Program-made: the position numbers
DNA from: Escherichia coli
Lineage (GTDB): Bacteria > Pseudomonadota > Gammaproteobacteria > Enterobacterales > Enterobacteriaceae
Direction: 5' to 3' (one strand)
Assembly: GCF_041886205.1 (NCBI RefSeq)
Contig: NZ_CP169029.1
DNA: 64,000 nucleotides
Shown here: in pieces, positions 31,301 through 34,300 of the stretch
Position numbering within the stretch: position 1 is the first letter of the stretch
Layout: each line of letters starts with the position of its first letter

Positions 31301-34300
31301 TCTGCCCTTTTGCTATTCTCACCGTAACGAATCAGCGGATACCATGATTATCAAACGCACTCCTCAAGCCGCGTCGCCTCTGGCTTCGTGGCTTTCTTAT
31401 CTGGAAAACCTGCACAGTAAAACTATCGATCTCGGCCTTGAGCGCGTGAGCCAGGTCGCGGCGCGTCTTGGCGTTCTGAAACCAGCGCCATTTGTGTTTA
31501 CCGTTGCGGGTACGAATGGCAAAGGCACCACCTGCCGTACGCTGGAGTCGATTCTGATGGCGGCAGGGTACAAAGTAGGCGTTTACAGTTCGCCGCATCT
31601 GGTGCGTTATACCGAGCGCGTTCGTGTGCAGGGCCAGGAATTGCCGGAATCGGCCCACACCGCCTCTTTTGCGGAGATTGAATCGGCACGCGGTGATATT
31701 TCCCTGACCTATTTCGAGTACGGTACGCTGTCGGCGTTGTGGCTGTTCAAACAGGCACAACTTGACGTAGTGATTCTGGAAGTAGGGCTGGGCGGTCGTC
31801 TGGACGCAACCAATATTGTCGATGCCGATGTGGCTGTAGTAACCAGCATTGCGCTGGATCATACCGACTGGCTGGGGCCAGATCGCGAAAGTATTGGTCG
31901 CGAGAAAGCAGGCATCTTTCGCAGCGAAAAACCGGCAATTGTCGGTGAGCCGGAAATGCCTTCTACCATTGCTGATGTGGCGCAGGAAAAAGGTGCACTG
32001 TTACAACGTCGGGGCGTTGAGTGGAACTATTCCGTCACCGATCATGACTGGACGTTTAGCGATGCTCACGGCACGCTGGAAAACCTGCCGTTGCCGCTTG
32101 TCCCGCAACCGAATGCCGCAACGGCGCTGGCGGCACTGCGTGCCAGCGGGCTGGAGGTCAGTGAAAATGCCATTCGCGACGGGATTGCCAGCGCAATTTT
32201 GCCGGGACGTTTCCAGATTGTGAGCGAGTCGCCACGCGTTATTTTTGATGTCGCGCATAATCCACATGCGGCGGAATATCTCACCGGGCGTATGAAAGCG
32301 CTACCGAAAAACGGGCGCGTGCTGGCGGTTATCGGTATGCTACATGATAAAGATATTGCCGGAACTCTGGCCTGGTTGAAAAGCGTGGTTGATGACTGGT
32401 ATTGTGCGCCCCTGGAAGGGCCGCGCGGTGCCACGGCAGAACAACTGCTTGAGCATTTGGGTAACGGCAAATCATTTGATAGCGTTGCGCAGGCATGGGA
32501 TGCTGCAATGGCGGACGCTAAAGCGGAAGACACCGTGCTGGTGTGTGGTTCTTTCCACACGGTCGCACATGTCATGGAAGTGATTGACGCGAGGAGAAGC
32601 GGTGGCAAGTAAGTTTCAGAATCGGTTAGTGGGCACGATCGTGCTGGTGGCGCTGGGGGTGATTGTACTTCCAGGGCTGCTGGACGGGCAGAAAAAACAT
32701 TATCAGGATGAGTTTGCGGCTATCCCGCTGGTTCCAAAAGCGGGCGATCGCGATGAGCCTGATATGATGCCAGCCGCCACCCAGGCGTTGCCGACGCAGC
32801 CGCCGGAAGGCGCAGCGGAAGAGGTGCGGGCAGGTGATGCCGCAGCACCGTCGCTCGATCCGGCCACTATTGCAGCCAATAACACCGAGTTTGAACCGGA
32901 ACCTGCACCGGTCGCCCCACCGAAGCCGAAACCGGTGGAGCCGCCTAAACCAAAGGTTGAAGCACCACCTGCGCCGAAGCCAGAACCGAAGCCGGTCGTG
33001 GAAGAAAAAGCTGCACCGACGGGTAAAGCCTATGTTGTGCAACTGGGTGCGCTGAAAAATGCCGATAAAGTGAATGAGATTGTCGGTAAGCTGCGCGGTG
33101 CCGGTTATCGGGTTTATACGTCGCCATCCACGCCAGTGCAGGGTAAAATTACCCGTATTCTGGTTGGGCCGGATGCCTCGAAAGATAAGCTGAAAGGTTC
33201 GCTGGGTGAGTTGAAGCAACTTTCTGGCTTAAGTGGCGTGGTAATGGGCTATACGCCGAATTAATACGGTCTTGCCTGATGCGACGCTGGCGTGTCTTAT
33301 CAGGCCTGGGCAGGGGTAGAACCGTAGGCCGGATAAGGCGTTTACGCCGCATCCGACACGCATTGCACGATGCCGCAAAGGCATAAAAAGTCGATGGCGT
33401 TGAATATTTTTTCAGCGCCATTTTTATTGATGCGCGGGAAGGAAATCCCTACGCAAACGTTTTCTTTTTCTGTTAGAATGCGCCCCGAACAGGATGACAG
33501 GGCGTAAAATCGTGGGACACATATGGTCTGGATTGATTACGCCATAATCGCGGTGATTGCTTTTTCCTCTCTGGTTAGCCTGATCCGCGGCTTTGTTCGT
33601 GAAGCGTTATCGCTGGTGACATGGGGTTGTGCTTTCTTTGTTGCCAGTCATTACTACACTTACCTGTCAGTCTGGTTTACGGGCTTTGAAGACGAACTGG
33701 TTCGAAATGGGATTGCCATCGCGGTACTGTTTATCGCTACCCTGATCGTTGGTGCTATCGTGAACTTCGTGATAGGCCAGCTGGTGGAGAAAACGGGGTT
33801 GTCAGGCACCGATCGGGTGCTGGGCGTCTGTTTCGGTGCGTTGCGCGGTGTGTTGATTGTTGCTGCCATTCTCTTCTTTCTCGACTCCTTTACCGGGGTG
33901 TCGAAAAGCGAAGACTGGAGCAAATCACAGCTGATCCCGCAGTTCAGTTTTATCATCAGATGGTTTTTTGATTATCTGCAAAGCTCGTCAAGTTTCTTGC
34001 CCAGAGCGTAAGTGCTCTGAGATGTGGCTTAACGAGGAAAAAGACGTATGTGCGGTATTGTCGGTATCGCCGGTGTTATGCCGGTTAACCAGTCGATTTA
34101 TGATGCCTTAACGGTGCTTCAGCATCGCGGTCAGGATGCCGCCGGCATCATCACCATAGATGCCAATAACTGCTTCCGTTTGCGTAAAGCGAACGGGCTG
34201 GTGAGCGATGTATTTGAAGCTCGCCATATGCAGCGTTTGCAGGGCAATATGGGCATTGGTCATGTGCGTTACCCCACGGCTGGCAGCTCCAGCGCCTCTG

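What the first reader, a model, noticed from the sequence alone, without database searches (positions are those of the whole stretch)
33274..33358. Second BIME plus terminator-like hairpin between dedD and the cvpA-purF promoter
A REP pair (33274-33358) is followed by a hairpin with a T-run (about 33393-33426) and then the PurR box (33451-33466). This is a compact arrangement that insulates folC-dedD from the PurR-regulated cvpA-purF-ubiX operon.
Basis: partly seen in the sequence, partly recalled or inferred. Interest (0 to 1): 0.2.

Follow-up and report, generated by a model that had tools for sequence, protein, structure and literature searches.

The report
Known REP pair, terminator, PurR operator

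Summary
The window is E. coli chromosome, 100% identical to strain LHM10-1. All three observed features are real and sit at the stated coordinates.

- **REP pair:** a Z2-type REP (33274-33309, + strand), a 14-nt linker and an inverted Y-type REP (33324-33357). Together they make one 91-bp BIME-2 unit that starts 9 nt after the dedD stop codon.
- **Terminator:** a 12-bp hairpin (33393-33422) followed by TTTTTATT.
- **PurR box:** ACGCAAACGTTTTCTT (33451-33466), just upstream of an extended -10 (TGTTAGAAT, 33471-33479).

Published K-12 data agree. A dedD 'primary' RNA 3' end maps to the U-tract, which corresponds to window 33427. PurR ChIP-chip finds this box. Topo-seq lists this element as a BIME-2 with gyrase cleavage sites.

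The comparison separates the parts. The hairpin plus T-run, the PurR box and the -10 keep the same spacing in 66 of 68 Enterobacterales loci, with at least four different stem sequences. The BIME is optional: I found 0, 1, 3, 4 and 7 units in different E. coli strains, and 136 of 5,426 genomes have the empty site. Other genera carry unrelated palindromic repeats in that slot.

So the terminator does the insulating, and the BIME is a variable passenger in the 3' UTR. This is already known and of low interest.

The parts
33262..33264 (+). dedD stop codon (TAA)
   Evidence: Annotation of the identical record NZ_CP037903.1 and the sequence itself.
33272..33362 (+). One 91-bp BIME-2 unit, bounded by TTGCC (33272-33276) and TTGCA (33363-33367). 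This is the unit that is absent or tandemly repeated in other strains.
   Evidence: Intergenic lengths of 167, 258, 440, 531 and 804 bp correspond to 0, 1, 3, 4 and 7 units. Tandem Repeats Finder gives period 91 with 7.1 and 4.0 copies. The exact empty-site junction occurs in 136 genomes.
33274..33309 (+). Z2-type REP. In this strain the terminal CTAC reads CTGG.
   Evidence: 3 mismatches, 0 expected by chance. Folds at -20 to -24 kcal/mol. The K-12 orthologue is listed as a BIME-2.
33310..33323 (.). 14-nt short linker between the two REPs
   Evidence: Sequence.
33324..33357 (-). Y-type REP, inverted relative to the Z2 REP
   Evidence: 2 mismatches, 0 expected by chance.
33370..33384 (+). Small hairpin ATGCC-GCAAA-GGCAT. 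It is part of the non-repeat 3' UTR and is kept in strains that lack the BIME.
   Evidence: Folds. Present in the empty-site strain Nord58.
33393..33428 (+). Rho-independent terminator of folC-dedD: stem-loop 33393-33422, U-tract 33421-33428, mapped RNA 3' end at about 33427
   Evidence: Published K-12 3' terminus at 2430859, peak 2430854-2430864. Hairpin plus T-run at the same distance from cvpA in 66 of 68 Enterobacterales loci.
33436..33450 (.). Conserved block GGGAAGGAAATCCCT between the terminator and the PurR box. Its role is unknown.
   Evidence: Alignment A1.
33451..33466 (+). PurR operator (pur box) ACGCAAACGTTTTCTT, overlapping the -35 region
   Evidence: ChIP-chip site AAGAAAACGTTTGCGT for cvpA-purF-ubiX. 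About 72 nt upstream of the ATG in all 68 Enterobacterales loci.
33471..33479 (+). Extended -10 element TGTTAGAAT of the cvpA-purF-ubiX promoter. This is inferred from the sequence.
   Evidence: Sequence. Nearly invariant across Enterobacterales.
33523..34011 (+). [quoted passage not shown]

Best explanation
The 258-bp spacer between dedD and cvpA has two layers.

The fixed layer is old. It is a Rho-independent terminator (33393-33428) that ends folC-dedD transcripts at about 33427. About 24 nt downstream lies the PurR operator, which overlaps the weak -35 of an extended -10 promoter for cvpA-purF-ubiX. With the terminator there, transcription coming from the cell-division and folate genes largely stops before it reaches the purine-repressible promoter. 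Expression of purF is then left to PurR. This last step is inferred.

The variable layer is one BIME-2 unit (a Z2 REP plus an inverted Y REP) lying in the dedD 3' UTR, 9 nt after the stop codon. It belongs to a dispersed repeat family, varies from 0 to 7 tandem units among E. coli strains, and is not needed for the insulation. Its likely side effects are those known for the family: a gyrase cleavage site (shown for the K-12 copy), a second barrier to 3' exonucleases, and possibly damping of dedD translation termination because it lies within 15 nt of the stop. None of these was tested here.
For: REP types are. The K-12 orthologue is listed as a BIME-2 with gyrase cleavage sites: ciprofloxacin (Cfx) 0, rifampicin plus Cfx 2, microcin B17 1, oxolinic acid 0.

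Terminator. The hairpin folds at -18 kcal/mol with z = -4.8. A published 'primary' dedD 3' terminus lies at K-12 2430859, which is window 33427, and gives a 164-nt 3' UTR. No terminus is listed at the REPs. A hairpin plus T-run whose T-run starts 97-103 nt upstream of the cvpA ATG is present in most of the 68 Enterobacterales loci. With a 90-120 nt window it is present in 67 of 79 intergenic regions against 91 of 790 shuffles, and at least 4 unrelated stem sequences occur. In the MAFFT alignment 83% of cells are paired, against 36-55% for slid controls.

PurR box: and it is conserved in all 68 loci. The -10 is conserved.

BIME optional. Other genera carry unrelated palindromic repeats in the same slot. 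The rule that a REP within 15 nt of a stop codon can stall ribosomes is cited from PMC12306157.
Against: The curated Term-seq lists of Adams et al. 2021, covering three conditions, contain no 3' end at 24307xx-24310xx. The terminated species is therefore either of low abundance or below their threshold.

The signal in the transcript-terminus data set (the TRS method) is moderate, 0.47-0.67, against 0.88-0.98 for the neighbouring accD terminator. Some read-through is therefore plausible.

The simple terminator pattern by itself is at chance level in this region.

Within Enterobacteriaceae the hairpin is conserved in sequence as well as in structure, so a DNA-level role cannot be ruled out from that family alone.

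The REP consensus sequences I searched with were recalled from memory. The classification is backed independently only by the published BIME-2 list.
Confidence: 0.88

Rival explanations
1. The BIME itself is the insulator. REP hairpins or bound proteins would attenuate transcription or define the dedD mRNA 3' end, and the downstream hairpin would be secondary.
For: The REPs are stable hairpins in the transcribed 3' UTR. From my own knowledge, BIMEs have been reported to attenuate transcription and to block 3' exonucleases. The K-12 copy is a gyrase cleavage site.
Against: The BIME is missing from 136 E. coli genomes and from most other genera, while the terminator is always kept. The mapped dedD 3' terminus lies at the terminator, and none is listed at 24309xx where the REPs are.
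Confidence: 0.06
2. The conserved inverted repeat ATGGCGTTGAA...TTCAGCGCCAT acts as DNA rather than as an RNA terminator. It would be a protein-binding site or upstream element of the cvpA-purF promoter.
For: It is conserved in sequence within Enterobacteriaceae. It lies about 65-95 bp upstream of the likely transcription start and is followed by an A/T-rich tract. An in vitro RpoN genomic SELEX peak was reported in this spacer.
Against: Morganellaceae, Pantoea and two other lineages have different stem sequences but keep the pairing and the T-run. An RNA 3' end maps in the U-tract. I found no sigma-54 motif.
Confidence: 0.05
3. The BIME is a neutral or selfish repeat with no effect on either neighbouring gene. 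Its place in the 3' UTR only reflects where such insertions are tolerated.
For: Copy number varies from 0 to 7, and there are internally deleted forms. The Z2 REP of this strain has lost its CTAC tetranucleotide. Different repeat families fill the same slot in other genera.
Against: The K-12 copy is cleaved by gyrase in vivo. It lies 9 nt from the stop codon, within the range reported to affect translation. This reading is compatible with the best explanation and differs only on side effects.
Confidence: 0.4

Closest known systems
BIME-2 (bacterial interspersed mosaic element type 2) of E. coli
   Same: It is a Z2 REP plus an inverted Y REP with short linkers, extragenic and transcribed. The number of tandem units varies between strains at one locus. 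The K-12 orthologue is listed as a BIME-2 with gyrase cleavage sites.
   Different: In this window there is a single unit. Its Z2 REP carries CTGG instead of the CTAC tetranucleotide.
Rho-independent (intrinsic) terminators
   Same: A G+C-containing 11-12 bp stem, a 6-nt loop and a U-tract, with an RNA 3' end mapped in the U-tract in K-12.
   Different: The stem is only moderately G+C-rich (5 G-C pairs), the U-tract is interrupted (UUUUUAUU), and the 3'-end signal is moderate. Termination is probably incomplete.
purF operator (PurR box) of the cvpA-purF-ubiX promoter
   Same: It is the same 16-bp sequence as the site reported by ChIP-chip, and it overlaps the -35 region.
   Different: Nothing differs. 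It is the known site.
REP elements in 3' UTRs that stabilise upstream mRNA or, when within 15 nt of a stop codon, reduce translation (Liang et al. 2015, as cited in PMC12306157)
   Same: The REP lies in the 3' UTR, and its stem starts 9 nt after the dedD stop codon.
   Different: No effect on dedD has been measured. A terminator hairpin lies downstream, so the REP is not the 3'-terminal structure of the mapped transcript.

Membership tests
BIME-2 | Made of one Z2-type and one Y-type REP in opposite orientation | tested here: met
   the consensus sequences were recalled from memory. The definition is from PMC3333891. The K-12 orthologue appears in the published BIME-2 list.
BIME-2 | Short linkers rather than the long L linker of BIME-1 | tested here: met
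   A 14-nt linker inside the unit and a 9-nt spacer between units in multi-copy strains. Absence of an IHF site was not formally scored.
BIME-2 | Tandem units whose number varies between strains at one locus | tested here: met
   0, 1, 3, 4 and 7 units of 91 bp. The window itself has 1 unit.
BIME-2 | Member of a dispersed, high-copy extragenic repeat family | tested here: met
   A median of 24 matching places per E. coli genome. A second pair lies at 20418-20497 in this window.
BIME-2 | Bound and cleaved by DNA gyrase | not testable with these tools
   Published Topo-seq for the K-12 W3110 copy gives 2 sites with rifampicin plus ciprofloxacin and 1 with microcin B17. This strain has not been tested.
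Rho-independent terminator | Stable stem-loop directly followed by a U-tract on the sense strand of the upstream gene | tested here: met
Rho-independent terminator | RNA 3' end in the U-tract in vivo | tested here: met
   Published data for K-12, whose hairpin is identical: dominant position 2430859, which is window 33427, annotated as 'Primary' for dedD. It is absent from the curated lists of Adams et al..
Rho-independent terminator | Structure kept while the sequence changes among relatives | tested here: met
   At least 4 stem sequence classes occupy the same position. 67 of 79 intergenic regions have it against 91 of 790 shuffles. The MAFFT-based pair count is 83% against 36-55%. No structure-aware alignment was made.
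Rho-independent terminator | Termination efficiency and independence from Rho | not testable with these tools
   No Rho termination region starts at these coordinates in Adams supplementary file 2. Efficiency is unknown.
PurR operator (pur box) | 16-bp imperfect palindrome close to ACGCAAACGTTTGCGT | tested here: met
   2 mismatches, and the only such site in the window.
PurR operator (pur box) | PurR occupancy in vivo at the promoter of a pur gene | tested here: met
   Published ChIP-chip peak and site for cvpA-purF-ubiX in MG1655. The box has a fixed position in 68 Enterobacterales loci.
REP-mediated translational down-regulation | REP within 15 nt of the upstream stop codon | tested here: met
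   9 nt lie between TAA (33262-33264) and the first stem base at 33274. The criterion is cited from PMC12306157.
REP-mediated translational down-regulation | Ribosome stalling and lower protein output | not testable with these tools
   No data for dedD were found.

The most novel reading that the evidence does not exclude
The number of BIME-2 units at this locus (0 to 7 among E. coli strains) could act as a heritable dial. It would change DedD output, through translation termination or 3' UTR stability. It could also change local supercoiling at the cvpA-purF promoter 60-150 bp downstream, through gyrase recruitment. Lineages would then differ in cell-division or purine-gene expression because of a repeat-number polymorphism.
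Probability: 0.08. Interest if true: 0.35.

Novelty: already known. Interest (0 to 1): 0.1.

Why it matters
It matters little beyond correct annotation. It is a clean example of how an E. coli intergenic region is built. A terminator, operator and promoter block has stayed fixed in position across Enterobacterales. Next to it is a 3' UTR slot where palindromic repeats come and go.

The practical points are these. The terminator at 33393-33428 should be annotated as the end of folC-dedD. The BIME should not be credited with the insulation. The 91-bp copy-number variation makes this locus unreliable for short-read assembly and could serve as a typing marker.

Tried and rejected
- **Rfam, permissive scan:** only sub-threshold hits to naRNA4, a REP-derived family. 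No other RNA family matched.
- **MG1655 RefSeq table:** it shows no REP features anywhere in this copy, so their absence at this locus says nothing.
- **3'-end resources:** the curated Term-seq lists of Adams 2021 have no 3' end in the spacer. I treat that as non-detection, because another data set finds it. Five further papers or supplements gave nothing: four held no supplementary text or were not available, and the SMRT-Cappable-seq files had no mention of these genes.
- **Promoter scan:** it missed the cvpA promoter because the -35 is weak. I infer an extended -10 instead.
- **Sigma-54 motif:** I searched for one to explain a published RpoN genomic SELEX peak and found no match.
- **Hairpin alignment:** MAFFT placed the Morganellaceae hairpins out of register, so the pair counts understate pairing. 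I did not build a covariance model and argued from stem classes instead.
- **5' UTR hairpin:** RNAalifold on the cvpA 5' UTR gave no consensus.
- **Copy-number distribution:** it could only be estimated from rank-spread samples plus an exact count of the empty site.

Full report
**Where this is.** The 451 bases around the finding are 100% identical to E. coli strain LHM10-1 and 98-99% identical to K-12 and thousands of other genomes. The annotation of the identical record gives the gene order accD, folC, dedD, cvpA, purF, ubiX, all on the + strand of the window. dedD ends at 33264 and cvpA starts at 33523, so the spacer is 33265-33522, 258 bp. It has the same length in K-12 with no indels. This gives an exact conversion: K-12 coordinate = 2464286 minus window position.

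**Checking the observation.** All three items are present at the stated coordinates.
- A Z2-type REP lies at 33274-33309 on the + strand. An inverted Y-type REP lies at 33324-33357. Shuffled sequence gave zero matches for either.
- The two are separated by 14 nt, and each folds into the expected hairpin.
- The REP part of the query matches a median of 24 places per E. coli genome. A second pair lies at 20418-20497 in this window. Rfam gives only sub-threshold hits to the REP-derived family naRNA4.
- The hairpin is 33393-33422 followed by TTTTTATT. It folds at -18 kcal/mol, z = -4.8.
- The PurR box ACGCAAACGTTTTCTT lies exactly at 33451-33466 and is the only such site in the 64 kb.

**What the literature already says about these exact elements.**
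- PMC3333891 defines BIME-2 as Z2 plus Y REPs with short linkers, in tandem copies whose number varies between strains.
- The Topo-seq study PMC6379681 lists the cvpA-dedD element of K-12 W3110 as an 83-bp BIME-2. It is one of the minority with gyrase cleavage sites: 2 with rifampicin plus ciprofloxacin and 1 with microcin B17.
- The PurR ChIP-chip study PMC3159470 reports AAGAAAACGTTTGCGT for cvpA-purF-ubiX, which is the reverse complement of the box here.
- The transcript-terminus study PMC10687069 (the TRS method) lists a 'Primary' dedD 3' terminus on the minus strand of MG1655 with its dominant position at 2430859 and peak at 2430854-2430864. It also gives the fold of this same hairpin and a 164-nt 3' UTR, in at least three tables. 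That position is window 33427, in the U-tract five bases after the stem. No terminus is listed at 24309xx, where the REPs lie.
- Against this, the curated Term-seq lists of PMC7815308 have no 3' end anywhere in the spacer in three conditions. The TRS signal is also moderate, 0.47-0.67, against 0.88-0.98 for accD. The terminator is real but probably not very strong, or folC-dedD is simply poorly expressed.

**Variation within E. coli.** The intergenic length comes in steps of 91 bp:

| Intergenic length (bp) | Units | Strain |
|---|---|---|
| 167 | 0 | Nord58 |
| 258 | 1 | this window, K-12 |
| 440 | 3 | Ecol_867, SA186 |
| 531 | 4 | O157:H7 NE122, EC8 |
| 804 | 7 | BH100N |

- Tandem Repeats Finder gives period 91 with 4.0 and 7.1 copies.
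- The unit is bounded by TTGCC on both sides.
- The exact empty-site junction occurs in 136 of 5,426 complete genomes.
- Rank-spread samples suggest roughly 70% of genomes have one unit and a little over a quarter have several. I confirmed that the '8-258' class of hits is multi-copy.
- Decayed forms also exist: a truncated second unit in PK12 and a 23-nt internal deletion in CUVET20-416.
- In every case the sequence from CGATGCCGCAAAGG through the cvpA start is essentially unchanged.

**Variation between species.** A pattern taken from the cvpA start codon region pulled 120 loci from one-genome-per-species contigs. dedD lies upstream of cvpA from Enterobacteriaceae out to Shewanella and Idiomarina.
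- In all 68 Enterobacterales loci the PurR box sits 69-74 nt upstream of the ATG.
- In 66 of them a hairpin plus T-run lies 90-120 nt upstream of the ATG, and in most the T-run starts 97-103 nt upstream.
- Over all intergenic regions of at least 130 nt, the hit rate is 67 of 79 against 91 of 790 dinucleotide shuffles.
- The stems fall into at least four sequence classes: ATGGCGTTGA/TCAGCGCCAT in Enterobacteriaceae, TTGCGGCGAT/ATCGCCGTAA in Proteus, Morganella, Providencia and Arsenophonus, GGGTGGGCAAC/GTCCAC in two unnamed Enterobacteriaceae, and GGCAGGAGC/GCTTCCTGCC in a Pantoea. Pairing and the T-run are kept while the sequence turns over. That is what a terminator predicts and what a DNA-binding site does not.
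- A MAFFT alignment gives 83% paired cells against 36-55% for slid controls, even with the Morganellaceae rows out of register.
- The -10 region CTGTTAGAAT is nearly invariant. The TG one base upstream of TAGAAT makes it an extended -10, which fits the poor -35 that the PurR box overlaps. This is inferred from the sequence.

**The variable slot.** The stretch between the dedD stop and the terminator differs between genera. E. coli and E. albertii carry BIME-2 units. Some Citrobacter species carry a diverged short-Z plus Y pair at the same TTGCC position. Enterobacter, Pluralibacter, Pseudocitrobacter and Pseudenterobacter carry unrelated CCCTCTCCC...GGGAGAGGG palindromes, in up to about 500 bp of tandem copies. 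Others carry nothing. The slot is a tolerated landing place for extragenic palindromes and is not a functional part of the insulation.

**Mechanism, with its status.**
- Shown: the identity of the REPs, the hairpin, the box and their conservation. For K-12, also shown: an RNA 3' end in the U-tract, PurR occupancy, and gyrase cleavage in the BIME.
- Inferred: that the terminator keeps upstream transcription from overriding PurR control of cvpA-purF-ubiX, and that the promoter is of the extended -10 type.
- Untested: termination efficiency, and any effect of the REP on dedD mRNA stability or on translation. The REP lies 9 nt from the stop codon, inside the 15-nt range reported to stall ribosomes.

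**Verdict.** Every element is a known member of a known class, and this very locus is already listed in published data sets. Novelty: already known. Interest: low.

Noticed in passing
window 33480-33505: A stem-loop (GCGCCC...GGGCGT) sits directly after the -10 of the cvpA promoter, so probably at the 5' end of the cvpA-purF mRNA. Proteus (GCTTCC/GGAGC), Providencia (GCACTT/GAGTGC) and Arsenophonus (ACCTTC/GAAGGT) have different stems at the same place. Energies are modest (-6 to -9.5 kcal/mol, weak z-scores), and RNAalifold on a MAFFT alignment gave no consensus.
   Followed up: partly
window 33436-33450: The block GGGAAGGAAATCCCT between the terminator and the PurR box is almost invariant in Enterobacteriaceae. 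No function is assigned. It contains a short GGGA...TCCC inverted repeat.
   Followed up: no
window 20418-20497: This is the other BIME of the window, in the mnmC-yfcL spacer. It has a long Z-type REP on the + strand, a 9-nt linker, and an inverted Y REP at 20464-20497 with 1 mismatch to consensus.
   Followed up: partly
L040 (Pseudocitrobacter faecalis), L048, L111, L085, L103, L037: dedD-cvpA spacers: Other genera fill the same 3' UTR slot with a different palindromic repeat family (CCCTCACCC..CCCTCTCCC...GGGAGAGGG..GGGTGAGGG). In L040 it forms about 500 bp of tandem copies. I did not identify the family.
   Followed up: no
L130 (strain PK12) 1050-1378; L131 (strain CUVET20-416) 716-950: These are decayed forms of the BIME. 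PK12 has two units with the second Y REP truncated (329-bp spacer). CUVET20-416 has one unit with a 23-nt internal deletion that fuses the two REPs (235-bp spacer).
   Followed up: partly
window 33265-33522 (K-12 spacer 2428784-2429041 in old coordinates): Two published in vitro screens touch this spacer. One is an RpoN genomic SELEX peak at old coordinate 2429072. The other is a run-off microarray probe for this spacer 'transcribed in opposite direction'. I found no sigma-54 motif. On the minus strand the hairpin is followed by CGACTTTTTAT, so it might also stop antisense transcripts.
   Followed up: partly
window 33306-33309: In this strain the Z2 REP ends in CTGG, where K-12 and most strains have CTAC. 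CTAC is the complement of the GTAG tetranucleotide that marks REPs.
   Followed up: no
L004 58-105 (dedD coding region, O157:H7); window about 32900-32990: The proline- and lysine-rich middle of dedD contains a short 24-nt tandem repeat. dedD length differs slightly between strains: 663 nt against 651 nt in CUVET20-416.
   Followed up: no
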